Counted from the first letter of the stretch, positions 342 through 61,339 are shown. The stretch: 64,000 bases of DNA from Deltaproteobacteria bacterium RIFCSPHIGHO2_02_FULL_40_28 (GCA_001798135.1 MGRJ01000031.1:57589-121588); one strand, 5' to 3'. The notes: a model not told the origin generated them from the sequence alone. Made by a program: numbers and translations.

Positions 342-365
342 AAAATGTAGTTTTCCATCAATTCT

Positions 366-505
366 GTCATTCCTGCGTCATTTGTCATCCCGGCGGAGGC
401 CGGGATCCATTTGTCTGTCATCCCTGCGCAGGCAGGGATCCATCTTTGAATTTAAGACTGGATCCCCGCCTTCGCGGGGATGACAATGGGTGCAGGGATG
501 ATAGA
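366..505. repeat. Tandem array of 3-4 REP-like palindromic units (family A: GTCATCCC-GCG-AGGC-GGGATCCATC) in alternating orientation
   Basis: Direct reading gives gtcatcccggcggaggccgggatccat, gtcatccctgcgcaggcagggatccatc and ggatccccgccttcgcggggatgac. The same unit recurs at 4384-4410, 4634-4660, 28280-28307, 28351-28379, 34888-34913, 35012-35040, 35354-35402, 36279-36306 and 51401-51428. Confidence 0.75.
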
Positions 506-3590: not shown

Positions 3591-3629
3591 AATTTTATAT
3601 TGCGTAGGGGCTTACTTCTAAACCTGCCC

Positions 3630-4625
3630 CTACATTTCCCCTTCATTAAACAATTCATCTACAAATCTCTCTGCATTAAAAGGAATTAAATCTTCCGTCT
3701 TCTCCCCTACTCCCATATATAAAAGCGGTAATTTGGTCTTGGCAACAAGGGATAAAATAATTCCACCTTTGGCGGTGCTATCATATTTTGTCAAAACCAA
3801 ACCCGAAATGGGGGCTGCTTGTGAAAAAAGTTCCACCTGTGAGAGCGCATTTTGGCCCGTGGTGGCATCTAAAACAAGAAAAATTCCATCGGCATTTCTT
3901 CCTAAAACCTTGGCAGCTATGCGCGTCATTTTTGAGAGTTCTTGCATCAAATTTGTTTTGGTTTGAAGCCTGCCAGCTGTATCAATTAACACAACATCAA
4001 CTTGGCTAGTAAGAGCTTGTGTTATTCCCTCGTATACCACACTCGCAGGATCGGCCCCCATTTTTGAAGAAACCAATTCTGCCCCAATGCGTTTGGCCCA
4101 AATTTCTAATTGCTCACCACTGGCAGCCCTAAAAGTATCCGCAGCAATACAACATACTTTCTTTCCTTTTTGAACGAACTGCGCCCCCAGCTTACCAATG
4201 GTGGTGGTTTTGCCAACGCCGTTCACACCAATAAAAAAATAAACGAGGGGAGATCCTTGAATATTCCCCTCTCCCCTTGGGGGAGAGGGTGCAGGGTGAG
4301 GGGTGTTTAAATTTTCACCCTCCCCCTTCACCCCCTCCCCTCCAGGGAGGGGGGATTTTATTTTTGTCATTCCCCCGTCATTGTCATCCCCGCGTAGGCG
4401 GGGATCCATCTTAACAATCTTCAAACAAGCCTTCTTTAACGCAGCATACGCACTTTCGGCATCCACAACATTTTTATCATGCGTTAATTCATTCAAAAGT
4501 TTCTTCGTCGCATCAACTCCAACATCTGCAACTAACAAAAGTTCTTCTAACTCGTCTTTGATTTCAGAAAATGTTTTTTTGGATCTAAAAAGAAAACTTT
4601 TGATGGGGGTGAGAAAATTGTTCAC
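3630..4625 (-). CDS. ftsY: Signal recognition particle receptor FtsY (NG domains), carrying an in-frame insertion of about 50 aa derived from repeats
   Basis: G-domain motifs FFIGVNGVGKTTTIGKLG, DTAGR and TKYD. An N-domain helical bundle sits at the N-terminus. The segment MDPRLRGDDNDGG...LPGGEGVKGEGENLNTPHPAPSPPRGEGN is encoded by repeat families A and B at 4266-4410. Confidence 0.85.
   Translation of the reverse strand: MNNFLTPIKSFLFRSKKTFSEIKDELEELLLVADVGVDATKKLLNELTHDKNVVDAESAYAALKKACLKIVKMDPRLRGDDNDGGMTKIKSPLPGGEGVKGEGENLNTPHPAPSPPRGEGNIQGSPLVYFFIGVNGVGKTTTIGKLGAQFVQKGKKVCCIAADTFRAASGEQLEIWAKRIGAELVSSKMGADPASVVYEGITQALTSQVDVVLIDTAGRLQTKTNLMQELSKMTRIAAKVLGRNADGIFLVLDATTGQNALSQVELFSQAAPISGLVLTKYDSTAKGGIILSLVAKTKLPLLYMGVGEKTEDLIPFNAERFVDELFNEGEM
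4266..4356. repeat. Family B composite GC-rich palindrome (ccctctccccttgggggagagggtg[c]agggtgaggggtg...ttttcaccctc...cccctcccctc[a]agggagggg)
   Basis: Near-identical copies lie at 5611-5732, 12561-12645 and 60610-60765. Shorter cores occur at 28300-28350 and three times inside the megasynthase (44723-44760, 44947-44985, 45331-45370). Confidence 0.8.
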
Positions 4626-4668
4626 TTATAAAGATGGATCCCCGCCTTCGCGGGGATGACATTTATGT

Positions 4669-5732: not shown

Positions 5733-5868
5733 TTATCCTCACCCACTGTAACTGTAATAAAATTAAATTCATTTGCATTCTTTGTCTAGATCGCTAAAAT
5801 TGATCGCTCTGATAATTGTATAAACACAGGGCAGGTTTAGAACCTGCCCCTACGGATGGGGGTTTTTA

Positions 5869-12541: not shown

Positions 12542-12723
12542 TAAAAAACGGGTCAATAATCCCCTCTCCCCTTGGGAGAGAGGGTGAGGGGTGATTTAAA
12601 ATTTTCACCCTCTCCCTAACCCTCCCCCCTCAAGGGGGAGGGGATAGACCCCCGCGCCACCCATTTTTTCTTTTTTCATCATTATCTCTTTACTGACCCT
12701 GAGCTTTTCATGTTAGGATATCT

Positions 12724-23572: not shown

Positions 23573-24233
23573 CATACCATCTACAGCTTTCGCTGCTCTC
23601 GCTTAAAAAGCGAGATTTGTGGTCTGGACTTTCTCTTCACCATACTTTTTTTCAAAAGCTTAGGTGCCTGCCATTAAGTCTCTACACCTTTCCCAACCAA
23701 TCATTGAGTTGGAACTTGGCTCGGGATTACCCTTCCAACGGCTTCCCCGAGTTTGACAGGAGTTCGTACAAAAGTTTCCTTCTGTACAGCCCATTGCGAA
23801 ATTAATTCCCAAGCATCCCGAAAAGAGGAAGAATTTGGTTTTCGTTGACGCTTGTCAGTTTCGACAAAGTGAATTTCACTGCCGTAACTGATAAACACTT
23901 TAACTGGCATTACATAAAAAACATTAAGTTCTTTAATGTAGGCCAGCGCAAAGTCAAAGTCGCACTCATTGTAAACCTCACGAACCATCTGACGACGATT
24001 CGTTTTGGTTCGGCGGTTATCAACAACATAATTGCCTGATCCCTCATGGAACCAAGCCGATTTGACTTGAACCTTTATAAGAGTTCCCTGGATATCAAAA
24101 ACCAGATCATAGGACATTCTATCCCCAACTGGTTTAAGAACACCCCAGCCTCTCTTTAAGGCCTCAAGCACGGCCGCCTGCTCAGCAATATCGCCTTTGA
24201 GCTTTGTGTTCATTCGTTAACTTCGCGGTATCG
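23573..24233 (-). mobile_element. Group I-like intron (about 661 nt) in the anticodon loop of tRNA-fMet, between U33 and C34
   Basis: The 5' exon ends in U. The intron ends in G (…ATGGTATG|CAT). P/Q/S-like elements lie 3' of the ORF (UUGGGAAAGGUG, AAUGGCAGGCACC, GAAGAGAAAGUCCAGACC). The position matches the known cyanobacterial tRNA-fMet intron site. Confidence 0.55.
23701..24213 (-). CDS. Intron-encoded PD-(D/E)XK-type homing endonuclease (I-Ssp6803I-like)
   Basis: 170-aa ORF lying entirely within the intron. Candidate nuclease motif ...YDLVFD...IKVQVKS (D...D-x-n-(E/Q)VK). The only homing endonuclease known from tRNA-fMet introns belongs to the PD-(D/E)XK class. Confidence 0.45.
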   Translation of the reverse strand: MNTKLKGDIAEQAAVLEALKRGWGVLKPVGDRMSYDLVFDIQGTLIKVQVKSAWFHEGSGNYVVDNRRTKTNRRQMVREVYNECDFDFALAYIKELNVFYVMPVKVFISYGSEIHFVETDKRQRKPNSSSFRDAWELISQWAVQKETFVRTPVKLGEAVGRVIPSQVPTQ

Positions 24234-34408: not shown

Positions 34409-35275
34409 CTACATTATTAATTTCATTAAACTTAACACCTGCAAATCAACCTCGTATTTTCCTTGATGATGCAAAGCCAAACCCAAAAGATGATCTTGGC
34501 TTGGACGTAAAATTTGAAATTGAAATTCATCTGATTTGTAAGGAGGGGTTTTGGGGGATTTTTCCCAAATTTCTGGATTTAAGCGAACAGTAATATCACC
34601 ATTTGGTTTCAACGAAAAAACAGCATGAGCAAAAGTATAAAGCACAGGAATACCTGAAGCTTTGGTAAGAGATTCTTTGAGAACAGCGTACTGATAAAAA
34701 CGAAACATGCGATCTTCCCCTTTGCGGGATTCTACATCTTTTACTTCCTCCTCGGGCCCACCCACCATGGCCAAGCGACCCTCATCAACACGGGGTTCTT
34801 TGAGATATTCTACGTCAATGCCATGGGACACATCACCTAGGGAACAAACAACCATTTTTTTGGTGTGACTCAGGCTAACAATAGAAGATGGATCCCCGCC
34901 TTCGCGGGAATGACGAATATGTTTTTCATCCCCATCCGTAGGGGCAAACCCATGTGTTTGCCCGTTTAATGGGGTGACACATGGGTCACCCCCTACATTT
35001 AAGAGAGAAGTGTCATCCCCGCGAAGGCGGGGATCCATCTTCATTCTTGGACGCTTTCCTTCTTCCATTTCCAAATCCGGTGAAATTTTGACGCGCGCTA
35101 GGGCATGAGAGGCAAGGTATTGAGCACGAAATCCAGGATGAGTTGCTTCGTCAAAACGTTTTTGTTCAGAGGGAATTAAAGCTTCGTACAAAAACTTTTT
35201 TTCTTTTTCAGAAAAATGGTCAATGGATTCAGGAATGGGAAGCGACCAGATGGTAATTTTTTTGGTTTCATTCAT
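34409..35275 (-). CDS. Sfp/AcpT-type 4'-phosphopantetheinyl transferase with an in-frame repeat-derived insertion
   Basis: PPTase motifs HGIDVEY (G-x-D) and VLKESLTKASG (W/F-x-x-KE-S/A-x-x-K). The segment MKMDPRLRGDDTSLLNVGGDPCVTPLNGQTHGFAPTDGDEKHIRHSREGGDPSS is encoded by REP-A and family C elements at 34888-35040. Confidence 0.7.
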   Translation of the reverse strand: MNETKKITIWSLPIPESIDHFSEKEKKFLYEALIPSEQKRFDEATHPGFRAQYLASHALARVKISPDLEMEEGKRPRMKMDPRLRGDDTSLLNVGGDPCVTPLNGQTHGFAPTDGDEKHIRHSREGGDPSSIVSLSHTKKMVVCSLGDVSHGIDVEYLKEPRVDEGRLAMVGGPEEEVKDVESRKGEDRMFRFYQYAVLKESLTKASGIPVLYTFAHAVFSLKPNGDITVRLNPEIWEKSPKTPPYKSDEFQFQILRPSQDHLLGLALHHQGKYEVDLQVLSLMKLIM

Positions 35276-35407: not shown

Positions 35408-38400
35408 TTATCCCGCGGCCTTTAAGGCTGCTGCAACCACTGGAGATGCACTTCCTCGTCTCATGGCACCTGCTCGTGTTGCCATTGCTTCCATACGAGC
35501 ACTAGGACCGGCATGTTCTATCACACCTACATCTTCTAGCACTTGATCGACAGCACTTGCAGGGTCTTCGGCATCCAAGGCCATAGCTAATTGCTGCCAA
35601 TGAATATTTTCTAAACCAAGCCCTTCCATTTCATCACGGCCATAACCATGTTCTTCCAAACGAGCAAGAAGGGTTGCGCGATCCATCTCTCCAGTAGGGG
35701 CGTGATTTATCACGCCCTGTTCAGAGGGCGCAATAAATTGCGCCCCTACATGAGAGACACCTTGAACCAAGCCACTACGCAAACCAGCAACATCTGCTAA
35801 GCTAACAAGTTCTCCAGTTGCTCTAGCCGCTACTTCTCCAGGTGCAGATGGAGAACCTGGATCGCCACGTCGCTCTTCGGGCTCCTCGCGATGACCAGGG
35901 CTCGGGCCATCTCCACCATCAGGGCCACTATCTCTTCCGGGCTCTGGAGGAGGTGGAGCTTCGCGTCCATGGATTAAACGTTCAAACGTACTCTCTAATT
36001 CTTCACCCACACGTACTGTCCCCACATTTTGTGAAGCCAAGAAAATACCACCTTGCCTTCGCGTAGCATCATTAGCAGACTGGGCATTGGCAAAGGCATT
36101 AGTGACAGCTGTTCTCATCAAAGGCTTTGCAATGGCCTCTGTTAAAGTTTTATCTTTAATTTTCTCACGATAGAATTTTAATTGAGTGTCTAATTTTAAA
36201 GCTCCTGGAGTATCCATTAAACGAAGTTTGCGGCCTTCGGCATCTTCAATCACACGAACAGCTACGGAACTACCTAAAGATGGATCCCCGCCTTCGCGGG
36301 GATGACTGAGGGTAAGGGGATCACTCAGAATAGTTTTTCCACCATACTGACTTTCTTTTGAATAAAGAATGGCATCATCCAAGGCTACACCGCTAGCGCC
36401 CCAATGAAATGCGCCTTTTACATCTTCGTGGGTGGTATAGGCACCCGAAGCAATGACTGGAATTTTTGCATCATACAAAGCTTCACGAGCTTTTCGAACA
36501 ATCAGTTCGGGATCGGCATTCATGTCGCGATTTTGTTCAACGGCTTGAAGAATTTTATTAAAATTATGCCCCAAAGCTTTTTTAACAAAAGCAAAGGTGG
36601 CTCTAATTTCTGGATCCTCGGGATGGGCACGCAAGTTTTCGATAGCTCGCGCCAATACGTTTTGAGCTGCCTTCATTTGAGGAACATAACGAGCCGTTAA
36701 AACACCAATGGCCTGTCCGTCTTCACCAAAGAAGGTAACTTTCATGCGCATATCACTCGTTAAGCCATCCCACTCTGGAACCTCAGCCACTAAGGTAATT
36801 GCTTCATTGGCTTCCGGTGCACGCAAAGGAGTGTACAAATTATCTGCAGTGAATCCCCAAATTTTAAAAGCCATCATGCCTGTCCAGCCTGTTAATTCAT
36901 CAGCAGCCAGCATCATGGAATGATAACGGCTTTGACCTTCAATGGGTGTTACCCTTCCCCAAAGAGCTTTTTTTCCATCATCATAATTAAATCTAAAATG
37001 TAAGCCCGTGCCATGCTCATGCCCGGCTGCTACACAATTAGGTAAACATCCAAATTGAGCATTACTTGCAAGTTCGGCTGGATTAATTGTGCTGGCTTTA
37101 TCTTTGCTTTTAACTTTGGAAGCATCTTGGAAAGTAGCATTGGAAAGAGTTTTTTCTTCACGAGTGGCAGGCTTACCTCCTTCGGCTGGCTTATCAACAA
37201 GCTCCATCATTCTCATTTCAATGCGACCATCTGGTTTTTTCTCTACATAAATTCGAACATTGGCATTGGAAGGCGCATTCGCAATATAGCCCACGTTTCG
37301 ATGCAATTTATTAATATCAACTCTTTCGCCACCCTTCACCATGGCTTCTAAAACAGATTCAAAAATGGAATCAAGCATGCCTCCATGGGTGATACCCGTG
37401 TATCCCGCATAAGTTTCTGGAAGTTTAAAATCGACTTCGGATTTATTGGAGTAAAGTCTAAAAGAAGGAAAATCCGTTGTTTTGAATTGTAAATTAATGG
37501 GGCGAAGGGGCACAGTAGGCATCACATCCCACCTAGGATCTCTTAAGTCAGATAAATCACCAAATTTATTTTCTCCGGCCTGGTTTATATTTCCAGAAGA
37601 AATACTTCTCTCAACCACCACAGCATCAAACTTAGCCTTGGTAGTTTTTTGATTAGGTTTACCTTCGTGTTCAACCACCTTCATTTCAGTGAGTTTAATA
37701 ACCTCGGCTGCTGTATCCACCGTTTGAAAAACAGCAATGCCTACTTTATTTAAAGCAATGACTTGTTCTGTCTTAGGCAATCCCCCTCTAAACATCACGC
37801 CGCGCACTTGCTTTTCTGCAACCACTTTAAGTTGGGCTTCAAAGTTAGAGGCAGAAACATCTAAACTCACCACAAGAGGCGCTGTATTACCTACAGCGGC
37901 ATACACAGCATCAATTCTGGCCTCTAGGGTATCAGGGACCCCATTAACACCATTACCACCTTCAGTTGCTGCTTTTCTTGCAGCTCTTTCTCGTAAAACT
38001 TTTTCTGCTGCTGTTTCAGTGGCTTTTAAATTTCCTGCATCCAGGGTTCCAATGCCACCGGCATCAATAACAGCAATGGCCAAACTAGGTGTATTGACCT
38101 CTGGTGAAAAGCCACGTTGAAGCACAGGATAAGAAACACCCTTAAAGGCCTCGGGCATGGGCAACTGGGCTATCCCCTCTGCGTCATGTTTAATGCCTCT
38201 CTCTAAGGTTCTTTTTTCTTTGATGTCACCAATATGCTCAAAAGTATATTTGAGATAATCACCAGGTAAAATATCCGTCAGTAAAAGGGCCGTGTCTTCA
38301 CGAGACATTTTGCCTTCAAACTCCCTGATATCTTTACCGTTGGCCACCCAGGCTGCTTTTTCAGCTCCTAGTCTTGCTTCTAAACGAGCTTGAACTTCTT

Positions 38401-41400
38401 GAATTCTTCTGGCCACCTCGGGATAAACAGACACTTCGTGCTTATCTACAAAAACATAAATATTTTGATCATAGAGACCCCTTTCAAACTCACCTTTTAG
38501 AGCTCCCAAGAGAGCACGCACAGAAAGTTCATTCATAGATACAAATTTTGTTACCGCAGGATCAACTCCTGGTAAGACAAGAGCTCCACTTTGAATATCT
38601 TCAAAAATGCGTTTTTCAATCAAGCCCGCCAAGGTTCCACCAGGAATTGCATGTAATGCAAAAGATAAAAAAGCAGGAAAACTTAAAACACGACGTAAAC
38701 CTGTTTTAGGATCAGAAAGCCTGGGGCTTGCCAATTCTTTTTTGGTGGTCATCTTGGCGCGACCCAGAGAACCCTTGGTTTCCCAGGTAGCCCCGCCGTA
38801 CACTCCACCCAACATTCCATCCGATTCAGAACCACGCCAATCAAACCAAAAAGTTTCTGAAGCTCCAAAATGTTTGCCCCTGGCTCCTTTTAACCAACCT
38901 TGTTCATTGAATAAATCAAGCAAACGGGGATGGCTTCTGCCCATGGGAATAATGGTTGCTATTTCTTCTTCTTTTTCAGAGGCAAAATTAGGAATTTTTT
39001 TCATTTCTAATTCGCCATAGGAATTCATGCTAGGAACAGAAAGTTCGGGCTGGTAATGCGCCCTAGCAGGCAAGCCAAAGGCTACAGAGTCAAAGAAGTT
39101 TACCCCCGGGAGTAGATTTTGTTTAATCAAAGCATCAACAGTTAAACCTTTAATGTTATCCCATTGAAGCTCGGTGTCAAATTCTGTATTAACAGCGGCA
39201 AGCCAGCCCCTAGGGTCTGTAAATCCCAGTTCTTCTAACTTGGTTGTACCTTTCACCAGCACAGGGCGATTTAAAATACGAGAAGCTTTTCTAGTTAACC
39301 ATCCACGAATTTCAGCAACGGTAGGCTCAAAAGCTTTTCCAACAGCTTCAACCACTTCTTTGGGAAGAGGAGTTGGAGTACCGGTTGCTGCCGGGTGGCC
39401 CACATCAAAGGGTACGGCATTTACATTAAGCAATTGTAAGTTAACTCCATGAGTCTCCGCCAAGGCCTTCAAAACAGCAGGATTAAAGGCAGAAGCTTTT
39501 TCAACAAGTTCTTCGGGTTTAGCGGGATCAACGGGATTTGGATCACGATGCACACCCACTACTTCTTTAACCGCTCCTGATTTAATCAGCGCGATTAAGG
39601 TGCGCATACCCATGCCATCAGACATGCCGTAAAACACCATGGGACGACGATGCCAGTTTTTTTGACGAGCCAGGTGGCCCATTTCGTTTACTTCTCTTTG
39701 TCCAATGGAGTCATAAATTTCTTTTACACGGGCTTGGGCCTCGGCATATTTAATGGCATTGTGCTGAGAGCGAATAATTTCTGCATTGGCGCGTTTGTTA
39801 GTGGCGCTAGCTTGATCTGCTGTAACTTCCAAGCGTTTTACCTTCTTGTTTTCGAAATCAACCGTATACACTCTGGGGTTTACAAAATTATTCTGGGCTA
39901 AATCGGTATCCACTTCCAGCTCTACACCCTCATTTAAGGGGAATTGGTAAACCCAACTTTCGATATTGTTCCAATCCAGTTTTCTGCCTTCCAAAACAAG
40001 TGCACGAGCAATGGCATGGGAACGCAAGGTTACTTCATATTGATCACGATAGAGAGAAACGGGGGTTTCTTGATAAGTAGCCCGATTAAAAAACATTTTA
40101 CGCAAGCCCTGACGTTCGGCTCTTTTTTGAACTCTTTCTTTCGCTACTCCCTCAATGAGTTTAGCCACATAATCCACTGCAGATTCTTCGGTCTCAAAAC
40201 CCAGTTTTCCCATCACTTCAATGATGGCTGTATTTTTAGCATTAAAACCAGCAGCCTCACGAAGCACCACCCATGTTACATCGTCATCGTAGAGATCCCT
40301 TAAATTCTCGGCATGCTTATGGTGGTAAACAGTCACATTTTCTCCACCCTGTGCATGAATATTATCCAAACCAGGATCACCCGGAATACCCAAGAAACGC
40401 ATCACAAGTGGAGATAAAGCTGAATCGGAACCGGAAGAACCACCCAAGAGATGTCCCATATGGGCCTTGGTTTTAACAATGTGGGCAAACTGGGTGGGAT
40501 CTAAAATGGAAGAAAGGAAAAGACGTATGGATTCTTCCTCGTATAAATCTCCCATGGGCGTAGAAGTCTTGTGCGCCATTACAACCAGGCGTACATTTTC
40601 TTTAAGCTTACGGGTATTATCCACAAGAAAATCCACCAAATTTTTTCCCGTACGACCTTCTCCAACAGCTTTATTCCATTCTTCTTCAGTCAGTTTGGGG
40701 CCAAAACGTTCGACTAACTTATTGTAGAGAGCTTTTTGTTCGGTAAGTTTTAAACCCCACGTACTGATGGCTGTATCGGCATTAAATTCTGCTTTTGCAC
40801 GCCCTGCAGCACGCTTCCCCCTTTGAACTGCAACCATTAATTCTTGTACAATACCCGTCATTTCCTCTGGGGTATGCAACACTTCAGTTAATTTTTCTTT
40901 GGCTTGATCCCAGGCATCAAAAAGAGCCGAGCGTTGACCAATACCGTAACCTTCTCTGGCTCCCTTGTAGGCTTGTTTATCTCCATCGGTGCGGCTTTCT
41001 GCCCCTGCAATCATGGAGTAAACAGGATCTCCTGTTTTGATGGCATTAGAAAGTGGGGTAATCCCCTGACCACCACCACCCGCACCCAACACAAAACCAA
41101 AGCGTTCCATATCATCGGGACGGGAAGCCATTTTAATGGCAATATCGCGACCACGACGAACAGAATCTCTTATTGTGGCTCCAATGGCATCAAAACCAAA
41201 AATGGCGTTGAAGGTAATGGCGTAATCAACTCCACCGGCAATCCAAATTTTTGCAAAAACTTCATCCCAGTTAACATCCATTCCACTTTCTTCTCTGCGT
41301 GTTGCAGCCCAATACTCACTAAACAAATGTTTCACAGCCATCACAATGTTCATGTTTCCTGTAGAACAAGCAGCTACAACGGCTAGCGCCATCCCTTCAG

Positions 41401-44400
41401 CACCTAATTGTTCGGTAGCTACCTGACCTGTTGTTGAATCGGGAAGAAGAGCTGCCATTAAGTAGTTGGCCACGCTATCTTCTATTTGCATGGGTTTTAA
41501 GGTCATTTCATTGAAAGGCTCTAAGTCACCCAAGCCTGTACCAATGCCGACAAAAACATTTTTAGGACCAAAAACTTCATCCAACTCTTTAGGAGAGCGC
41601 CCTGCAGCCGACATCAAAATTTGGGATGTAAACATCTTGGCCATAAAGGAAGCTTTGGCCCCAGTACGAAGCTCGCTAGCGGGCACACCCATGCCTTCCC
41701 AGTCAAAACTGGTTTGACCCGGAAGATCGCCCGCAATGGTTTTAGGCAATTGAATTGTAAATTTCATGAAGTAGGTTTGGCCACCCTTGGCTAAAGCATA
41801 CAGAGAGCCATCAGGACGCCTATGAATAGCCAAACCAGCATTTTCTAGTTTTGTACGAGTAGCTGCAGGTAAATTAATTCCCTTAGCAGTATTTTCAATT
41901 TCGATTTCCTTGTCATTATCTCCAAAAGCAACTTGGCGAAGCACTTCAAATTCTTTGAAGCGACCAACTTCCTGAATACCACTATTGGCCAAAAGATGCG
42001 CTTCAACAGCATTTTGCCATGTTTTAAATTTTTCCAAAACAGCATCATCTAAACCAATGGAAGCGGCTAGTTTTTTATAATCTCCCCACTGGGAAACATC
42101 CACACCCATGGCCTTGGCCAAATTGTAAAAATCATAATTACCAAGCCAGCTATAACCCTCGTGCCCTTTAAATAAACCAGCCGCCAACATATTACGATAG
42201 TTGGCTAGGGCATCTGTTCCCAAGGGACCAACCATGCCATACCCACGCACCACAGGAGTTTCATCTTCAAAAAGGATATCGGTTTTAGGCTTGTAAGCAT
42301 AGCGACTGCTTGTTTCTCCCTTAATGGCAATGTTGATGTTATTGAGATCAACAATGGTTCCATCTAAGGGAATAAGGCTGGGATCTACTGCTGCTTTCTT
42401 TTCTTCTGCTTTTCTAGCTTTAGCTTCGGTATGTTTTATATCTTCTGTTTCTTTAACGCGCGCTTCTATCTCACCAAATTTTCCTGTTCTTAAGGCAGAC
42501 GTAAAACCATAGGTATCATCATATTCCCAAAGACCTTGAACCCGCTTGCGGGTATCTCCCTCTGGGGGTCTCAATTTACGTTTCCCAAATTTAGCAGCCA
42601 GCGCCCCCGATAAACCAACTGTTGACAGCTCATCACCTGTAAGGGTTTTAATTTTAATTCCTTCTGCTAGTGATTCAGTTTCTAGAGGTTGCGAATAATA
42701 ATCTTTGCCCGACATTAAAGTTTCTGATCTGCCATCTGATTTTCCCCAACCCGTTGTTCTAGCTACTTCCACTAAAATGGGCTTTTCTTCTTCGTCTCTA
42801 ATCCCATTGGCATAGGCCTCTGCTGCGGTTTGACCTGGAGGCAGAGCATTTTTAGTTAAGTGATAACTTTTGGAACCTGGTAGGGCCGCAGGATTTAATT
42901 CTCCCTCAAGCTCACCCAAGTTTGCTGCATTATTGGGAGTGTAGAGATTAACAAAAACAACTTTCTCCCCTGTTTTGTATTTTTGATGGAGTTTAGCCAG
43001 ACTAATGGCCATCCAACGCGTAGAAAGAGCCATCACCAAAAGAGAATCGAGTGGAGTACCACGATCGGCTAGAGAGCCATAGTCTTCACGTCCAGCTCCA
43101 TTGATGTAGAGAGTAGGGAGATGAGGCATTTGAGGTTCTACTTCTAATTCACCCTTTCTGTATTTTTCTTTATCTTCCTTGTATTGTTTTAAGTCTGCAA
43201 CATACTTCATTTCGATGTAATAAAGCAGGGCATCTTCATCAAAGCGGTTTCCGGGTTGCATATTGGGCACCACATCCATACTGGCTCCATCCGCTGCCTC
43301 GCTGTAAATATCGTAGTAAAGATCGCTGGCTACTCTGCCTTTGCGCTCGGCACTTCGGCCAGCATAATCTGTCATCATCACGTTACCACCCAATTGCATC
43401 CACTTGGAGGCATAGCCGGCTGTGATGGTTGAAGCTTGATGAATTAAGGCCACATGCCCACGCAAATCGTAACCATCCTCAAGTAAAAACTGGAGATCTT
43501 TCCCTGTTTTTTTATCGGCCATGGTGGGATCGGCTAATCTTTTCGCAGCTTCGATAGTGCCATCAGTATCTGGAACAAATTGTGATTTTTTAGCACCTCC
43601 ATAGGTGGGAACATGATTACCCGAAACGATATCGATCACCTTCCCGGTATAAATAATTCCCTCATCCAAACGATGTGCAGCTAATGTGTAGAGATGTTCC
43701 AAGGTATCAATACGTCCTTGGCGACGGGCCTTTTCTGCTGTATCCGCAGTTGCATCCCGTTTTTTGGTTTCGGCATTGATGAAACCACGCAACCAACCCA
43801 AGCGAATACTATCGATTCCATTTGCAATTTGACGCATTTCTCTTTCTTCTTGGTCCAAAAGACTTGCACGTAATGCGTCAGAAGCATCTTCGGGCATACG
43901 GGTTTCAAAAGCAGCGCTTCGCACATAACCCACAAAACGCATGAGGCGGGCTATGCCTCCATTTTGGGTTACATGATTAAAACCATACACACCCATGCCA
44001 GCACGCACGGAAGTTAAAACACCTGTCACATCTTCGGCCGTCATATCCCCGCGTAAAATTTTACGAGGATCAATGGTTTCTGTTCCCCCCTCGGTACCTC
44101 GGTAGTAAATACTATCGGCATAATGGGGTTGCATGAGGCTATCCATAAAGAAGTCGGAGGTGGAAACACGAACAGCCCCTAAACGACGTTCTGCTTCGGC
44201 TAAACGAGAAGCTTGTTCTGAATCATAAGTTGTGGGTGCGCCTTTAGCATCAAGACCCACACGGGTATCTGTGGCTTCTACTCCTCTAGCTGAAGGGGTT
44301 GCTAAAACAGCAACAGCTGCACCTCGAGCCCCTGTTGCACCTGGCGAAGCTGGTGGTGGAGAATCTCCAGCAGCCGCAGGGGCGCTGCTCGCTGCGCCCA

Positions 44401-47400
44401 CAGAAGCCAATGCTGTTTGAATGGCTTGTTGAATAAGCTTGTCTTCGTTAGAGAGAGTTGTAGTTGTTGCAACCGCTGCTGCTCCAAGCTTCACTCCTTT
44501 TTTATCTAAAAGTTTTGCAAAATCGTTAACGCTTTTTACTTTTTCCAGGTCTCCATCCGAAATGGTAATAGAATACTTGGCTTGATAGGCACTTCTAACT
44601 TCATTGATTTTATTTGTATCAAAACCAAGATCATCCGCAAAACGAGTACTGGCTTCAATAGTTTCTGATACGCTCACTAAGCTTAATTGCTTCATGGTGA
44701 GGCCAATATCATCTACTAAAGACCCTCCCCCTGCACCCCCTCCCTGAGGGAGGGGGGAAGTTTGTGCACTTCCGGTTTGAGCAGTAATTGCTGCTAATCT
44801 AGCCTCTAAACCCGACCTGGCCGAAGCTCCTAAACCTTGAAGTTGTGTTGCTAGTTGTGTTGCTAAAGCATCTAAATGAGTCCCGGCATCAATGGCTGCT
44901 CGATTAGCGGCTACAAAGGTAGAAAGGGTGGAATCAACAGATGAGACCCCTCCCCCTGCACCCTCTCCCTGAGGGAGGGGGGAAGTATTGGTCATAACAG
45001 AATTGGTAAGGGCTTGGGTAATGGCTTTTTGTTCTACCTCTTCAGCAGGAGGAAGGGTAGCAGTAGCAGCAGAAGCTACAGCAACAGTTGCAGCAAGTTT
45101 GACTCCCTTTTTTTCTAAAAGAGCAGCAAACTGATTAACTGTGGATATTTTTTCAATCTCAGAATCGGCAATGGCAATGCCATGTCTACTTTGATAGGCA
45201 TTTCTTAACTCGTTTATTTTGTTGGTATCATAACCCAAATCATCTTTAAAACGCGTACCCCCTTCTACAGCTTCTGACGCACCAATCTGACCTAATTGTT
45301 TCATGGTTACAATAACATCATCTACTAAAGACCCTCCCCCTGCACCCCCTCCCTGAGGGAGGGGGGAAGTTTGTGCATTTCCAGCTTTACCAAGCAATTC
45401 ACTTTGACGCGCTTTTAACGCATCTGCTGCACCCGCACCTAATGCAACTAATTGTCCAGATAATTGAGTAGCCAACGCATCTAAATTTTGACGCGCTTCA
45501 ATAGCAGGTTTATTGGCCCCCACAAAGGCATCAACAATGGCTTTTACTTCAGCAGGAGTTACTTGCTTGAGAGCAGAGGTACTCGAAGGTGCTACTGTAG
45601 CAATAGCTTGAGGCTGGGCTGCCACTTCATCTGCTGCTCCTCTTCGAAGATCTTCTAATGTTTCTACCTTGATTTCACCAACCGTAATATCGGGGCGGTT
45701 GACTTCAACAACGGCTGTTTCGGCACTGGCAGTTAATGCCCCAATTTCCTTGGTATTAAAAGCCTTTAAAGAGTTGGCATAAATAATTTCAATGCGTTCA
45801 TCAGGTTTAATAATTCCTTTTGCTTTCAAATATTTTACTTCTTCTTCAATAAAGGGTTTTAAGGTGCCCGCTGATTGATGATGAGAAGGCCCAATTTCAA
45901 TAAAGCGTCTTACCCCTTCTTCTAACATTTTTCGAACATTAGCCCGCCAACGCACACTACGAGCCAATTGGCCGGCCATAATTTCACCCAAAAGTTGTTT
46001 TCTTCTCTCGTTAGTTGGAGGAGAAAAATCATCCTCGGCAATCCCTTTTTCTCTTCCTATTTCACGTAAAGATTTTCCTTCAACATCCAAGTAAACATCC
46101 ACAGCTTGATCTAATTTAGCAGGATCAAAAGGAATACCATGCTGACGCATGTAAACCAAGAAATCCGCCGAAGCCATTTCCATCAAGGAGGTATGAAAAG
46201 CATTGGCAATGGGACGAATATTGAGTGTGTATCCAAATTGATCAAACAATCCCCACACACTTTCGGCTAAACGATAATACTGGGGATTTGTTGTGGGATT
46301 TTTATCAAACAAAGCCTTGTGTCCACCAATCATCCACTGTTTAGGAGAGTTATCATTGGAAAATTCAACAACAAAGGGTGGCTCAATCTCCATCTCTACA
46401 CATTGCCCCCTCACATACTCTTGCATTGCTGTCATTTGCGCTTCACTTAAAGGCTCAACCTCATCTCCCTTGGGAAACACAGCAACAAGAGCTTGCGGTC
46501 TTTCTGTATCAATGTATCGCACCTGGGAAGAACCACGCTCGTAAACAGCTTTCATGGCATCATCAGGACTTAACATTCCAGAAGCAACTAGGGTAATCCA
46601 CATGCCCAAACTATGACCTGCATAAGCGGCATCACGAGGAATCAAACCCTTTGCCTGTAGCTCTTCAAACAAAATCAAAGAGTAGGCCATGATCATGGGT
46701 TGAACTTTGGAGGTATCATCTTCAGTTTTATCAGTCTTCCCCGCTTTGCTGTTCATGGATTTAACCAGATCAACAATGGGCTCTTTTCCATCAGGAGATA
46801 ATCCAATGGAATTCACTGCAGCTTTCAACGCCTCTCTTTTGTCTGCATCAATGTAGATTCCTAAAGAATCAATGGCATCTAAAAGGGGTTGATGTCTTTG
46901 GGCTGCATCGGCCTCTAAAAGGGCTTTATACAAAACAGGCATAACCCTGGCCTGACCAGCAATTTTAGCTTCTGCCCTGGTTGGCGCTGTATACTTGTAA
47001 TGTTTTAATTCCCGTACAAGGGCGGCTTGAATCTTTCTGGCCGAAGCTGAAATTTTGGGCATGTACTCTTGAAACTGAGCCAGCCTGGCTCTTCTTGCCG
47101 GATCAGAAATGAGATGATTGCCCATATCCAGGTATTGAGAGCCCTGGCCTGTAAAAACAACGGCTGTTTTAACTCCCTTGCCTACCAAATCGTAACTCAT
47201 CACAGCTGTGCCTTGTGCATTTTTTACTACCACATGGTAGGAATCTACACCTTCGGCGGTTGCTGTACGGGTTACCTCTGGAAAAAGTTTATCCCCCATC
47301 CCCACAAAGCCCGTGTATTTAAGGTTGGCTACTCCTAGGGCATCACGCATGAGTCCCGCTCTTTGCATTTCGTTTAAAACAAATTCGTTCACATGAGCAA

Positions 47401-50400
47401 AGGTAGCCATGCCCTGCATGATGCGCCCTTGCGCAATTCCACCCGCAACAGCTGCTAAATCAGAAACATGGATGGGATTTAAATCGACAACATATTTTTC
47501 AGCTAAATCTACTGGAATGGTTAACGAACCTTTAAACACCAAACGACTTTGAGGAAGATAGGCCAAACGTTCTGAAAGATACTTGGAAGCCACCACTCCC
47601 AATTTTTTGTACTCGGCCTTTAATAAATCTCCCAAACGTTTTTGTTCAGCTTCTACTTTAGCTTTGGCATCAGCATCACCTTCTTCTGCTTTTTTAATTA
47701 ATTTTGCTAAAGTCTCAATAGCTGTAGCATGCTTACCCATAAAGGCAGCATAGGCAGCTTGTGCCTTGGCTCCATCAAAATAAGGAATGCGTTTGGGGCT
47801 TGGCCTTTCTTTTAAGTCTTCATTCCATTCATCAATGTCAGTTTTTAAATCTTTTTGATACCCTTCAATAGCTAGGCGTTCAATAGTTTGAGCCGGGCTT
47901 GCCACATTGTTATAAACTGTTCTTCCTTCTAAAAGATTAATGGCGGCATCGGGAGCTTTAAATATAACGCGCTCTGGCCCTGTACGCATGCGGGATACCA
48001 AGGAAGAATCGATCACACGTACTAATTCTTCAGTTGCACCTTTTATACGATACACTTCAGCACGCACCACTATACGCCGACCTGCCAAGCGGCCATCATT
48101 AAAATCTTCGGCTTTTAAAAGACGAGAACGAGTTACAAGAGTATCCCCCACACGAATAGGGGCTACAAAATTAAAAGTTTTCCCCTCGTCAATTACACGA
48201 GTTGGATCCATATCGAATTCTTCCATAAACATGGCGCCATCCAAGGATTGCCACATGTCGTGCGAAAGATAATGCGGATGCACTTCAAAATTTCTGGCAT
48301 GGGCATCAAGATACTTGGCTTCTGTAGACCCAATGGAGGCTGCATAATCTGTTGCCTGACGGGGCGTTAAAGGAGATGACCGCCTCTCAAAAACTGCCCC
48401 TCCTGCACCTGCTTGTTCTTTAGAAACGCTAGCCCACTCGGTTGGAATATCCCAAATTTGTCTGTAAAAAACTCTAGCTTCCTTTCGAAATTGATCCATG
48501 TTTTCTTGTTCCCAAGTAGCACCCACTTTTTTGTAATTGCGGTTTAATTCATAGTGCGTGGTGAGATCGGATGGACTAGGATAATAATACTGAACCATGT
48601 GAATTCCACCGTCTCCCCTATTAGTAACAGCAAAAGAAAGCCGACCATTTTCGTAAAAATTAATGGTTTTTACTTTTCCATTTTCAAATTGAAATTCAAT
48701 TTCATGACGCGTTTTATCTTTTTCGGGAACATTCCGAATAAAACCAAGATAGGGATTATTTTCTGGTTTTCCCTCTACCGTTATTTTTTTAGCTTTTAAA
48801 AAATCGGTGAGAACACTGTCGGGATCAATACCTAAAATACCGTTTTTATATTTTTCAAATACACTGGGATTAGTTCCATCAGATTTTTCATCCATGCGCT
48901 TGGTTGGAACAACACGAACATTTAAATAATCATCACTTCCATCTACTGTTTTAACTTGTACTTGTACTCCATCAATGGCTTTTAGTTTTCCTACAGCAGA
49001 ATCATCTGTATCTTTTTTTGTTTTAGGTATTGTTTGCAAATGAGCTTTAAGGGGATCGTTGCTTGTAGTACGAAGCCAACTTTTCATTCCATCGGCATCT
49101 TCATCAACCACTCCTAAAATATCCATGCGCTTATTAGAAAACACAGCAGGAAGGGCAGTTTTAGCATGATGGGAAGAAGGTCCTACAGTTACAGCTGAAG
49201 TAGCACCGTGGCTTGCCGCCCAACGGTATTGATGGGGCATATTGACTGGCCAATGCCATTGCTGACGACGCAAGTTTAAAGCAATATCACTCTCTGGGGT
49301 AATGGGAGTGATATTATAATTATGAATTACAGTTGAAAGATAGGGAGCTCGCAAAGGAAGGGGTGTTCCTGGTTCATAATGATTGGCTGTGGCTAGAAGC
49401 CTTTCGTGCTCTGCGGGAGCATCTGCATAAACCCTGGGATTATGGGGAGGCATGGTAAGGCCCGTTTGAGTGAGAGGATCACGCACATTGTTATTCCACG
49501 AAAAAGAAGTAACAATGGGTTTTAAGCGGGTAACTGTTGCATCATCATAACCTGTCCAATCAAAATCACGCTTAAAAATAATCATCTTGGCCAATTCTGC
49601 CAAGGCTTTTCCATGACCAATCATCAAAATAAAATGAGAACGAGTCCCATCTTTGGTTTCATCTGTATTTACATTGTTCACAGCTACATAATCATCTGTT
49701 CCTGCATAACGAGTATTAATGGCTTCAACGAGTTGCCCCAACTCACTCTCACCTGGATTAAACCAATCATAGGGGATACCCGAAACCGTCATGGTAACCA
49801 AATTATATCTTTGAAAATAAGTGTCGATGTCTTGAGGTTTGGGTGGAATTTTTTTACCTTCACCGTCCATTTTAACTAAGGGATCAAATTCTGTGGCTCC
49901 CTCTGCATTGGCATTAAAGGGTCCTTCAAAAACAGCCCCTTCCGTAACAGACCATTCGATAAAATTTTGATACGCCTGCACCGTATGGTATCCACGGAAA
50001 TCCCCATCGTTTCTAGGAATCAAGGGGCGCTCATACCCTTCTACATCAAAGGAACCACCTGCAAAGTAAGCTGCAGGCAAGCCTCCCGATTGACCTAAGA
50101 GGGCCACAAATTGACCAAAATCATACCCATGAAGTTCCATCACCCTTACCCGAAGGGCCTGAACTAAGTTAATCATGGGAAAGGCATGGCTTACACGACT
50201 GATTTCAATGTAGTTGGCATAGATTTTTTGATCGGCATCGGCCATACGACGCAATTTTTCGATATCAATGCCATGGCGTATGAAAATATCGCGCAATTCA
50301 CCATAAAGTTTTTGAGCTTCAGGATAATTTTCGATTAAAAAGTTGAGTTCATTGATGTAACCTGCCCCCTGACCTGCAAACACAGCAAAGGGCTTATCGC

Positions 50401-60546: not shown

Positions 60547-60609
60547 TAAAGCGGGGCACAGGTTCAATGTCATCCTGAACCCTTCACCTGTCATCCTGAC
60601 AATTAAAAT

Positions 60610-60765
60610 TCCCCTCTCCCCTTGGGGGAGAGGGTGCAGGGTGAGGGGTAATTCAAAATTTTCACCCTCTCCCTAACCCTCCCCCCTCTTAACATTAAGA
60701 GGGGGTAACGGTTTTCCTTTTCTTACCCCCTCTTAGAATAAGAGGGGGGAGGGGGAGTTATCCCC
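60610..60765. repeat. Family B composite palindrome plus cttaacattaagaggggg sub-repeat
   Basis: cccctctccccttgggggagagggtgcagggtgaggggta...ttttcaccctctccctaaccctcccccctcttaacattaagagggggtaacgg...ccccctcttagaataagaggggggagggggag. Confidence 0.8.
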
Positions 60766-61339
60766 GTATTTCTTTTTCAAGACTCCCACAAAACGTTTCA
60801 AAAAGTTTAGCTTCGAGTGTAAGGCAAGGTTCTAAACTTTTTATTTTTCCTTCAGATAAAATTTTCTTAACTTTTGCTTCAATGGTAATACGGTGATTAG
60901 TTTCTTCGTTGATAATCCCCTCTAATTCTTCTCGCACAAGGGTTTCCTTGGTAATTTTTTGATACAAGGGGTACAGGGCCATAGCTCGCCTCTCAATCAA
61001 ACAAGTTACAAAAGCATAATTGGTGAAAGTGTTATTACATCCTAAATGCTCTTCAATAAGCTGGCATACCGAATGATCGAGCATTTGAAAATAACTTACA
61101 GCTTCATCAGCACACAGATACCCTGGGTTTTCTCCACCTAAAGCCTCACTCATTTTTTTCAAAACATAGGCATGGCGGGTTTCATCATGAAAATGTTCCA
61201 TGATAGCCAAACTTGGATGATCCTGACAAACAGTTTTACTAATTTTACGCGCCCCAATGTGTTCTAAAAGTGAAAGTGTATTAAGCCATCTGGCTTCCAA
61301 AGCTCGATGGCTTGTGATTTTTGCTAGAAGGGTTTGCAT
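60758..61339 (-). CDS. Ferritin-like di-iron carboxylate protein (MiaE-like?)
   Basis: Two ExxH motifs (EHFHDETRHA; EETNHRI) spaced as in di-iron four-helix bundles; 193 aa. Confidence 0.3.
   Translation of the reverse strand: MQTLLAKITSHRALEARWLNTLSLLEHIGARKISKTVCQDHPSLAIMEHFHDETRHAYVLKKMSEALGGENPGYLCADEAVSYFQMLDHSVCQLIEEHLGCNNTFTNYAFVTCLIERRAMALYPLYQKITKETLVREELEGIINEETNHRITIEAKVKKILSEGKIKSLEPCLTLEAKLFETFCGSLEKEIRG

What the first reader, a model, noticed from the sequence alone, without database searches (positions are those of the whole stretch)
4266..4410. FtsY carries a repeat-derived insertion of about 50 aa between its N and G domains
The SRP receptor is essential. Its N-domain four-helix bundle (…ALKKACLKIVKM) is separated from the G-domain P-loop (PLVYFFIGVNGVGKTT) by DPRLRGDDNDGGMTKIKSPLPGGEGVKGEGENLNTPHPAPSPPRGEGNIQGS. 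This stretch is encoded entirely by a family B element followed by a REP-A unit, and the frame is intact across it. The insertion shows that these elements can lodge in a tightly packed, conserved GTPase.
Basis: seen in the sequence. Interest (0 to 1): 0.7.

Follow-up and report, generated by a model that had tools for sequence, protein, structure and literature searches.

The report
Selfish palindromic repeats inside ftsY linker
The gene for the SRP receptor FtsY in this uncultured groundwater bacterium carries two small selfish palindromic DNA repeats, read in frame as a floppy loop of about 50 amino acids between its two domains; this is a clear example of a phenomenon already described in Rickettsia and other bacteria.

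Summary
Window 3630-4625 (minus strand) is an intact 331-aa FtsY. Between its N domain (aa 1-71) and its G domain (from P126) lies a 54-aa linker, against a median of 14 aa (range 10-38) in 43 orthologs.

139 of the 148 inserted bases (4265-4412) belong to two repeat families found elsewhere in the window:
- a 91-nt three-hairpin MITE-like element ("B", 4265-4355);
- a 31-nt REP preceded by a half unit ("REP-A", 4365-4412). REP-A meets every structural criterion of the published CGTC-tagged REPs.

The identical gene appears in at least 10 independent assemblies. All invariant FtsY residues are kept. AlphaFold gives a confident NG fold (TM 0.87-0.89 to E. coli FtsY) with the insert as a low-confidence coil.

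None of 8 other B copies would leave ftsY open if swapped in at the same position. The gene has therefore been kept readable by selection.

The insert sits in the most length-variable surface loop, not in the packed core. In-frame REP and RPE insertions are well documented, and a REP in the FtsY of Opitutus terrae is listed at residues 105-111, which is apparently the same loop.

Verdict: real, well supported, and a new member of a known kind. Interest is modest.

The parts
3630..4625 (-). ftsY coding sequence, 331 aa including the insert, GTG start, intact
   Evidence: ORF list; Pfam SRP54_N and SRP54; identical protein in at least 10 contigs from NCBI and ENA assemblies; AF2 pLDDT 85; Foldseek top hits are E. 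coli FtsY NG.
4413..4625 (-). N domain (aa 1-71), a four-helix bundle
   Evidence: AF2 helices 5-14, 19-32, 37-49 and 56-71, with block-mean pLDDT 87-95 over residues 11-70 (77 for residues 1-10). Aligns to E. coli FtsY chain residues 22-89.
4382..4412 (+). Full REP-A unit, a CGTC-type REP: TGTC tag, 8-bp stem ATCCCCGC/GCGGGGAT, 4-nt loop, CCA tail, then TCTT. Read in frame as K-M-D-P-R-L-R-G-D-D.
   Evidence: 0 mismatches to the REP-A pattern; alignment of 11 copies with compensatory stem variants; hairpin z = -3.1; family criteria from PMC3733652.
4365..4381 (+). Degenerate REP-A half unit (TGTCATTCCCCCGTCAT). The same half-plus-full arrangement occurs at window 356-410.
   Evidence: BLAST 4365-4409 against 365-410, 87% over 46 nt; alignment A6.
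4356..4364 (.). 9-nt A/T spacer (TTTTATTTT, coding K-I-K) not assignable to either family. It may be a remnant of the original linker or of the target site.
   Evidence: It lies outside the aligned extent of B and of REP-A. The remnant reading is inference.
4265..4355 (+). Family B element, 91 nt, with inverted termini TCCCCTC...GAGGGGA and three hairpins. Read in frame as SPLPGGEGVKGEGENLNTPHPAPSPPRGEG.
   Evidence: Inverted repeat I2; copies at 12560, 60610 and 5610 in the window and full 90-93-nt copies in six metagenome loci on five different contigs; fold z = -4.3; GC 0.65 against 0.41 for the rest of the gene.
3630..4264 (-). G domain (from N121/P126 to the stop) with P-loop GVNGVGKTT, DTFRAA, DTAGR and TKYD
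   Evidence: Pfam SRP54 aa 127-326, 237 bits; invariant residues kept; aligns to E. coli FtsY chain residues 92-299.
4631..4661 (-). Second REP-A copy between the hisG stop (4669) and the ftsY GTG start (4625), in inverted orientation to the internal copy. Context only; possibly a hisG 3' hairpin.
   Evidence: Inverted repeat I1, 36 nt, 92% complementary; 1 mismatch to the pattern; terminator-like hit on the minus strand.

Best explanation
Two non-autonomous selfish palindromic elements have inserted into the short stretch of ftsY that encodes the N-G inter-domain loop. One is a 91-nt MITE-like three-hairpin element (B). The other is a CGTC-type REP with a half unit (REP-A).

The gene is still read through as one polypeptide. 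The 148 inserted bases add about 45-50 residues that are rich in Gly and Pro, hydrophilic and disordered, and that loop out from the surface. The four-helix N bundle and the GTPase core are left intact.

The insert is a tolerated passenger, neutral or slightly deleterious, and not an adaptation. It survives for two reasons: this loop is permissive, and selection on an essential gene removed every variant that broke the frame.

Shown: gene identity, repeat identity, open frame, reproducibility across assemblies, predicted fold, and the variable length of this loop in orthologs. Inferred: that these were insertion events, since no empty site is available; that a transposase acts in trans; that the full-length protein is made; and that the insert is neutral.
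For: - Repeat origin. REP-A has 11 copies and B has 4 copies in 64 kb, against 0 expected. The ftsY copies are 30/31 identical to the REP-A consensus and 85/93 identical to the nearest B copy. GC is 0.59 in the insert against 0.41 in the rest of the gene.
- Position. E. coli FtsY has 2 residues where this protein has 45. The linker is 54 aa against a median of 14 and a maximum of 38 in 43 orthologs.
- Gene integrity. All 53 invariant columns are kept. AF2 pLDDT is above 90 on both sides, and the insert block means fall between 42 and 82, with residues 79-100 below 50 and predicted as coil. TM is 0.87-0.89 with rmsd 2.4 A to E. coli FtsY NG.
- Not an artefact. The protein is identical in at least 10 contigs from different assemblers and samples.
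- Selection for an open frame. In the swap test, 0 of 8 other B copies, in either orientation, keep ftsY open. The ftsY copy differs from them at the TGA-forming loop base, at the TAA/TAG site and by loop indels.
- A genome-wide habit. 4 of 11 REP-A copies lie inside real genes and use the same hydrophilic frames (KMDPRLRGDD twice, [SH]HPREGGDPS twice): ftsY, a PPTase and a 5243-aa synthase.
- Precedent. RPEs and REPs are known inside genes, including FtsY of Opitutus terrae.
Against: - No relative with an empty site exists. The next-best FtsY is only about 56% identical, so 'insertion' rests on comparison with distant orthologs and on repeat identity.
- There are no expression data, so translation through the three GC-rich hairpins is assumed.
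- The target-site duplication could not be defined.
- No transposase was looked for.
- A 9-nt spacer is unassigned.
- One 671-nt contig carries a 1-nt deletion at the junction that breaks the frame. It is probably an error but could be a real variant.
- Only 64 kb of the genome was inspected for a second ftsY.
Confidence: 0.82

Rival explanations
1. Exaptation. The insert, or its RNA or DNA hairpins, now has a function. It could be a flexible acidic tether that replaces the missing A domain. It could be a translational pause site between the N and G domains. It could be an mRNA stability or processing signal within the hisG-ftsY-tatD transcript.
For: This FtsY has no A domain. The insert is disordered with net charge -2. 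The ftsY B copy has unusual substitutions. The same loop carries a palindromic insert in another lineage (P0062, z = -2.7) and a REP in O. terrae.
Against: The same elements sit in unrelated genes and in intergenic DNA. The peptide is simply what the hydrophilic open frame of the repeat encodes. The substitutions are sufficiently explained by stop-codon avoidance. No conservation across species can be shown.
Confidence: 0.08
2. Decaying paralog or pseudogene. This ftsY copy is no longer functional and an intact copy elsewhere does the work.
For: The linker is unusually long. One short contig carries a frameshift at the junction. Only 64 kb was inspected.
Against: All invariant residues and the G1-G5 motifs are intact. 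The NG fold is predicted with confidence. The ORF is open although B copies usually carry stops. The gene sits among housekeeping genes (hisG, tatD). There is no second copy in the window. The sequence is identical in at least 10 assemblies.
Confidence: 0.04
3. Split expression. The N and G parts are made as two polypeptides through termination or restart inside the insert.
For: There is an ATG at M85 inside the insert. One gene caller started a 246-aa product there on a contig that does not include the upstream part of the gene. A weak promoter-like match lies at 4387-4360.
Against: There is no in-frame stop. The GGGGGA stretch abuts the ATG with no spacer (sequence). The promoter-like count equals the shuffle expectation. 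The only good terminator-like hairpin in the insert is on the antisense strand. SRP GTPases need the N domain covalently linked to the G domain (established knowledge).
Confidence: 0.03
4. Assembly artefact. Repeat reads were mis-joined into the gene.
For: Several short contigs break exactly at the repeats (P0122, P0123).
Against: The junctions are identical in the NCBI MAG, in MEGAHIT k141 contigs and in a SPAdes contig from different samples. The frame is preserved, which a random mis-join would rarely achieve.
Confidence: 0.02

Closest known systems
Rickettsia palindromic elements (RPE), Ogata et al. 2000; reviewed in PMC10969869
   Same: Both are short palindromic selfish repeats of roughly 100-150 bp. 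Both insert in frame into unrelated housekeeping genes and add a peptide to the protein. A high share of copies is intragenic: 85 of 728 in R. felis, and 4 of 11 REP-A copies in this window.
   Different: The host is a free-living, groundwater MAG labelled Deltaproteobacteria, not an obligate intracellular alphaproteobacterium. Sequence relatedness of B to any RPE family was not tested. Here two different elements sit side by side in one loop.
CGTC-tagged REPs (Di Nocera et al. 2013, PMC3733652), which include RPE-4/RPE-6 and Neisseria dRS3
   Same: REP-A has the (C/T)GTC tag, an 8-bp stem starting with AT, a 4-nt loop and a CCA tail, and it varies by compensatory stem changes. That paper also reports intragenic copies, including clusters that encode 43-82 aa.
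   Different: The paper found the family mostly in alphaproteobacteria. This host lineage is not among those listed. The extra half unit upstream and the conserved TCTT after the tail are local features.
REP (GTAG-17) inside FtsY of Opitutus terrae, Oter_1709, aa 105-111 of 319 (PMC3733652, Additional file 3)
   Same: The protein is the same. By arithmetic the loop is also the same, directly N-terminal of beta-1 and the P-loop.
   Different: That case is a single REP adding 7 residues, from a different REP superfamily (GTAG) and a different phylum. Here a composite adds about 50 residues. The loop assignment for O. terrae is my inference from the lengths; I did not align the sequence.
Bacterial MITEs with in-frame insertions (intragenic ERIC, Correia, Nezha, QMITE1; PMC10969869, PMC5896051)
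   Same: B has terminal inverted repeats, small size, many copies, A/T-rich flanks and no coding capacity of its own.
   Different: No target-site duplication or parent IS was identified for B. Its 27-nt hairpin core is shared with elements in very different genomes of GC 38-70%. The full 90-93-nt form is confined to low-GC contigs.

Membership tests
FtsY (SRP receptor, SRP-type GTPase) | N-terminal four-helix bundle (SRP54_N) | tested here: met
   Pfam PF02881, 29.9 bits against a cutoff of 22.4. AF2 predicts four helices, with block-mean pLDDT 87-95 over residues 11-70.
FtsY (SRP receptor, SRP-type GTPase) | SRP54-type G domain with G1-G5 motifs | tested here: met
   PF00448, 236.8 bits. GVNGVGKTT, DTFRAA, DTAGR, TKxD and GxGE are conserved in alignments A1 and A4.
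FtsY (SRP receptor, SRP-type GTPase) | Closer to FtsY than to Ffh/SRP54; no M domain | tested here: met
   PDB phmmer gives FtsY chains about 240 bits against Ffh about 135 bits. The top 50 Foldseek hits are all FtsY or chloroplast FtsY. The protein ends 5 aa after the G domain.
CGTC-tagged REP (Di Nocera 2013) | Terminal CGTC tag (TGTC or CCTC variants allowed) | tested here: met
   Of 11 copies, 8 have TGTC, 2 have CGTC and 1 has AGTC (alignment A6). Criterion taken.
CGTC-tagged REP (Di Nocera 2013) | Stem of 8-9 bp beginning with A-T and T-A pairs; loop of 4-5 nt | tested here: met
   ATCCCCGC-GAAG-GCGGGGAT, with compensatory variants CCCTGC/GCAGGG and CCCGGC/GCCGGG. Fold shown.
CGTC-tagged REP (Di Nocera 2013) | Unpaired 3-nt tail, consensus CCA | tested here: met
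   CCA follows the stem in all 11 copies.
CGTC-tagged REP (Di Nocera 2013) | Predominantly head-to-head dimers | tested here: inconclusive
   The window holds one cluster of three (356-484), one head-to-head pair 97 nt apart (34890/35012), and singletons. That is too few copies to judge.
Rickettsia palindromic elements (RPE) | Sequence homology to one of the RPE families | not tested
Only the link of REP-A to the CGTC superfamily, which includes RPE-4 and RPE-6, is shown, and that link rests on structure.
Rickettsia palindromic elements (RPE) | In-frame insertion into functional protein genes | tested here: met
   ftsY, a PPTase and a 5243-aa synthase all stay open across the elements.
MITE | Terminal inverted repeats, small size, multiple copies | tested here: met
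   B arms 4265-4302 and 4318-4355 are 79% complementary. The element is 90-93 nt. There are at least 4 copies in the window and full-length copies in 6 metagenome loci on 5 different contigs.
MITE | Target-site duplication | tested here: inconclusive
   The flanks are A/T-rich (…AAT|B|TA…) in all 8 copies, but no consistent direct repeat is visible.
MITE | Related autonomous IS or transposase with the same termini | not tested
   The window ORFs were not screened for transposases or RAYT.

The most novel reading that the evidence does not exclude
The FtsY N-G linker may be a recurrent landing site for palindromic elements across phyla. Candidates are this MAG, Opitutus terrae, and the lineage of P0062, whose 34-aa linker is also a DNA palindrome. 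In that reading the hairpins, or the disordered loop, have acquired a role, for example pausing translation between the N and G domains or tuning ftsY mRNA stability.
Probability: 0.07. Interest if true: 0.55.

Novelty: new member of a known kind. Interest (0 to 1): 0.3.

Why it matters
This is a clean natural experiment on an essential, structurally well-known GTPase. It suggests that the N-G loop of FtsY can accept about 50 disordered residues, which is useful for choosing tag or sensor insertion sites.

It also shows that a free-living, uncultured groundwater lineage treats REP and MITE elements as Rickettsia treats RPEs, with roughly a third of the local REP copies sitting in frame inside genes. 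That extends the 'selfish DNA in protein-coding genes' phenomenon beyond obligate intracellular bacteria.

The swap test gives internal evidence of purifying selection on the reading frame, since only the ftsY copy of the element is stop-free. This partly substitutes for the missing comparative data.

It does not reveal a new mechanism.

Tried and rejected
- Empty-site search. The 5.8-billion-protein search, GTDB genomes and the cluster members gave no relative above about 58% identity and no variant without the insert. The insertion polarity could therefore not be shown directly.
- A first exact look-up of P0001, which starts with V, found nothing. The M-start form, P0121, found the contigs.
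- Contig L084 carries a 1-nt deletion at the B/G-domain junction. I judged it a low-coverage error because it is a single 671-nt contig that is otherwise 100% identical.
- Rfam has no family for either element. The only hit in the window is a group I intron.
- Long linkers in other FtsYs: the P0062 insert is significantly palindromic (z = -2.7), but the P0013 insert is not (z = -1.3). Neither has a second copy within 10 kb, so repeat status is unproven.
- The promoter and terminator scan of the insert gave nothing above the shuffle expectation on the sense strand.
- The metagenome scan with the B core showed that the 27-nt hairpin is shared by many unrelated GC-rich elements. The core alone does not define the family.
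- The idea that the REP-A copy upstream of the start truncated helix N1 was rejected. AF2 and the alignment show that all four N helices are present.

Full report
**What is there.** The minus strand of window 3630-4625 is one uninterrupted ORF of 331 aa. Pfam finds the SRP54 helical-bundle domain at aa 16-65 and the SRP54 GTPase domain at aa 127-326, the latter at 237 bits. Against PDB sequences the best matches are FtsY chains at about 240 bits, compared with about 135 bits for Ffh. The protein is therefore the SRP receptor FtsY in its minimal NG form, without an A domain.

**Where the extra residues sit.** In the phmmer alignment to E. coli FtsY, query residues 12-75 match chain residues 22-89 and query residues 121-327 match chain residues 92-299. 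The query thus has 45 residues where E. coli has two. In a 44-sequence alignment I counted the residues between the end of helix N4 (V71) and the invariant proline before strand beta-1 (P126). The count is 54 here, against a median of 14 and a range of 10-38 in the 43 orthologs. The insert is the longest linker seen.

**The extra DNA is made of dispersed repeats.**
- REP-A has the consensus TGTCATCCCCGCGAAGGCGGGGATCCATCTT. It has 11 copies in the 64-kb window, against none in shuffles. The copies differ by compensatory changes in the stem, CCCCGC/GCGGGG versus CCCTGC/GCAGGG versus CCCGGC/GCCGGG.
- The ftsY copy at 4382-4412 is 30/31 identical to the consensus. It is preceded by a degenerate half unit at 4365-4381, an arrangement repeated at window 356-410.
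- Family B (4265-4355, 91 nt) has inverted termini and folds into three hairpins, with z = -4.3 against shuffles. Other copies lie at 12560, 60610 and 5610.
- A metagenome scan with its 27-nt core found full-length 90-93-nt copies in six loci on five different low-GC contigs. The short hairpin core alone occurs in many unrelated GC-rich elements.
- Only 9 nt (TTTTATTTT, 4356-4364) are unassigned. The insert has GC 0.59, against 0.41 for the rest of ftsY.

**What the elements are.** REP-A meets every structural criterion of the CGTC-tagged REPs defined by Di Nocera et al. 2013 (PMC3733652). These are a (C/T)GTC tag, an 8-bp stem starting with A-T and T-A pairs, a 4-nt loop and a CCA tail. That superfamily includes Rickettsia RPE-4 and RPE-6. 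B behaves like a MITE, being small and multi-copy with TIRs and A/T-rich flanks. I could not define a target-site duplication or a parent transposase for it. Neither element matches an Rfam family.

**Is the gene alive?**
- All 53 invariant columns of the 44-sequence alignment are retained, including the P-loop, DTFRAA, DTAGR and TKxD.
- AlphaFold2 with that alignment gives mean pLDDT 85 and pTM 0.84. It predicts four N-domain helices and a complete G domain, mostly above 90. The insert (about aa 72-125) is coil whose block-mean pLDDT falls between 42 and 82, with residues 79-100 below 50.
- The model superposes on E. coli FtsY NG with target-normalised TM 0.87-0.89 and rmsd 2.4 A.
- The insert peptide is 83% Gly, Pro or polar residues and has net charge -2.
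- The identical protein is found in four NCBI MAG accessions (labelled Deltaproteobacteria bacterium, Rifle groundwater, e.g. GCA_001799145.1). It is also found in ENA re-assemblies made with other assemblers, at least 10 contigs in all. It is therefore not a mis-assembly.
- One 671-nt contig has a single-base deletion at the junction. I regard it as an error.
- No second ftsY is present in the window. The rest of the genome could not be checked.

**Internal evidence for selection on the frame.** I replaced the ftsY copy of B in silico with each of eight other full-length copies, in both orientations. None kept the ORF open; all ran into a stop inside the swapped-in element, most after a few codons, and five also shifted the frame. 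Other B copies have on average fewer than one open frame of six, whereas the ftsY copy is open in the frame used. The ftsY copy differs from its nearest relatives in three places. One is the loop base that would create TGA (TCAA to TCCA). Another is the TAAC site (now TTCAC). The third is a set of loop indels that bring the two halves into one frame. Either only an unusual variant could settle here, or the copy was repaired afterwards. Both imply that an intact ftsY was required.

**A habit of this genome.** Four of the 11 REP-A copies lie inside genuine genes. One is in ftsY. Two are in a 288-aa phosphopantetheinyl transferase (Pfam ACPS), where they bracket an insert of about 65 aa. One is in a 5243-aa synthase ORF. 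In each orientation the same hydrophilic frame is used twice, KMDPRLRGDD and [SH]HPREGGDPS, and never the hydrophobic alternatives (WIPAFAGMT, VIPAKAGIH) or the frame with a stop. The giant ORF also carries three B-like half hairpins, read as SPLPQG(G/E)GAGGG.

**Mechanism, with its status.**
- Shown: two repeat elements occupy the N-G loop of an otherwise intact ftsY, and the frame is open.
- Inferred: they arrived by insertion. Possibly there were two events, since the REP unit with its half unit is 48 nt (16 codons) and B plus a 2-nt duplication would be 93 nt (31 codons). They would have been mobilised in trans.
- Inferred: the protein is made full-length with a disordered surface loop, and the insert is a tolerated passenger.

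The sense strand has no terminator-like site in the insert. The good hairpin-plus-T-run at 4331-4364 is antisense. The internal ATG (M85) has its purine run directly against it, so an internal start is unlikely.

**Comparison with what is known.** In-frame insertion of palindromic repeats into housekeeping genes was described for Rickettsia RPEs. A review cited here reports 44 RPEs in R. conorii genes, and the R. felis genome paper reports 85 of 728 RPEs inside ORFs. Di Nocera et al. list intragenic GTAG and CGTC REPs in many species, with clusters that encode 43-82 aa. They argue that such inserts lie in flexible linkers or loops. Their Additional file 3 lists a GTAG-17 REP at residues 105-111 of the 319-aa FtsY of Opitutus terrae. 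By length arithmetic that is the same N-G loop, though this is my inference and I did not align the sequence. The present case is therefore a new member of a known kind. It is larger, composite, and in a free-living uncultured lineage. It works like an RPE, but I do not file B as an RPE because sequence homology was not tested.

**Limits.** No close relative exists in the protein collection or in GTDB; the next-best FtsY is about 56% identical. There is therefore no empty site, no dN/dS estimate and no dating. There are no expression data. No transposase search was done. The recurrence of palindromic inserts at this loop in other lineages is only suggestive: the P0062 insert has z = -2.7, while the P0013 insert is not significant.

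Noticed in passing
window 23609-23808 (minus) and ORF 23701-24213 (minus): A group I intron (Rfam RF00028, 57.4 bits, above the gathering score) overlaps or adjoins an ORF with a full-length PD-(D/E)XK endonuclease domain (PF11645, E = 7e-51), which looks like a homing endonuclease. The interrupted host gene was not identified, and ARAGORN finds no tRNA anywhere in the window.
   Followed up: partly
window 34409-35275 (minus): A 288-aa phosphopantetheinyl transferase (Pfam ACPS at aa 152-237) carries an insert of about 65 aa. The insert is bounded by two head-to-head REP-A copies, read as KMDPRLRGDD ... HSREGGDPS. The stretch between them (GQTHGFAPT) looks like a third repeat family.
   Followed up: partly
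window 35408-51139 (minus): A single 5243-aa ORF, a fatty-acid or polyketide synthase-like megaprotein, contains an in-frame REP-A (36282-36306, read as SHPREGGDPS). It also contains three B-like half hairpins (44722, 44946, 45331), read as SPLPQG(G/E)GAGGG, in the linkers of a triplicated segment.
   Followed up: partly
window 4382-4412 and 4626-4661: Two REP-A copies in inverted (tail-to-tail) orientation, 92% complementary over 36 nt, bracket exactly the N-domain coding segment of ftsY. The upstream copy abuts the GTG start and sits 8 nt after the hisG stop. It scores as a terminator-like hairpin, so how ftsY is transcribed and where its ribosome-binding site lies are unclear.
   Followed up: partly
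L085 10280-10381 (FtsY P0062, ENA k141_1949367 / GCA_021825235.1): An unrelated FtsY has a 34-aa N-G linker (INPLLKKEGIGGG...PPDPLLLKDGEYPK) whose DNA is a long palindrome, with 0 of 200 shuffles folding as well. This may be an independent palindromic insertion in the same loop. No second copy lies within 10 kb.
   Followed up: partly
L159 4252-4390 (Ga0155274_105) versus window 60590-60770: A related metagenome contig shares the left flank of the window's B copy at 60610. It carries a complete B followed directly by a REP-A, whereas the window copy is truncated and followed by a different hairpin. The repeat content at orthologous loci therefore differs between related strains or species.
   Followed up: no
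window 3600-3640 and 5826-5860: A further short palindromic family (…AGGGGCAGGTTTAGAA(C)CTGCCCCTAC…) flanks the tatD-ftsY-hisG block. It appears translated as 'FIAPS…GVINHAPT' near the C-terminus of the giant ORF.
   Followed up: no
metagenome loci L088-L196: The 27-nt hairpin TCCCCTCTCCCCTTGGGGGAGAGGGTG occurs in 109 metagenome stretches whose GC ranges from 38% to 70%. It is embedded in clearly different longer elements, so it is a hairpin module shared across very different genomes.
   Followed up: partly
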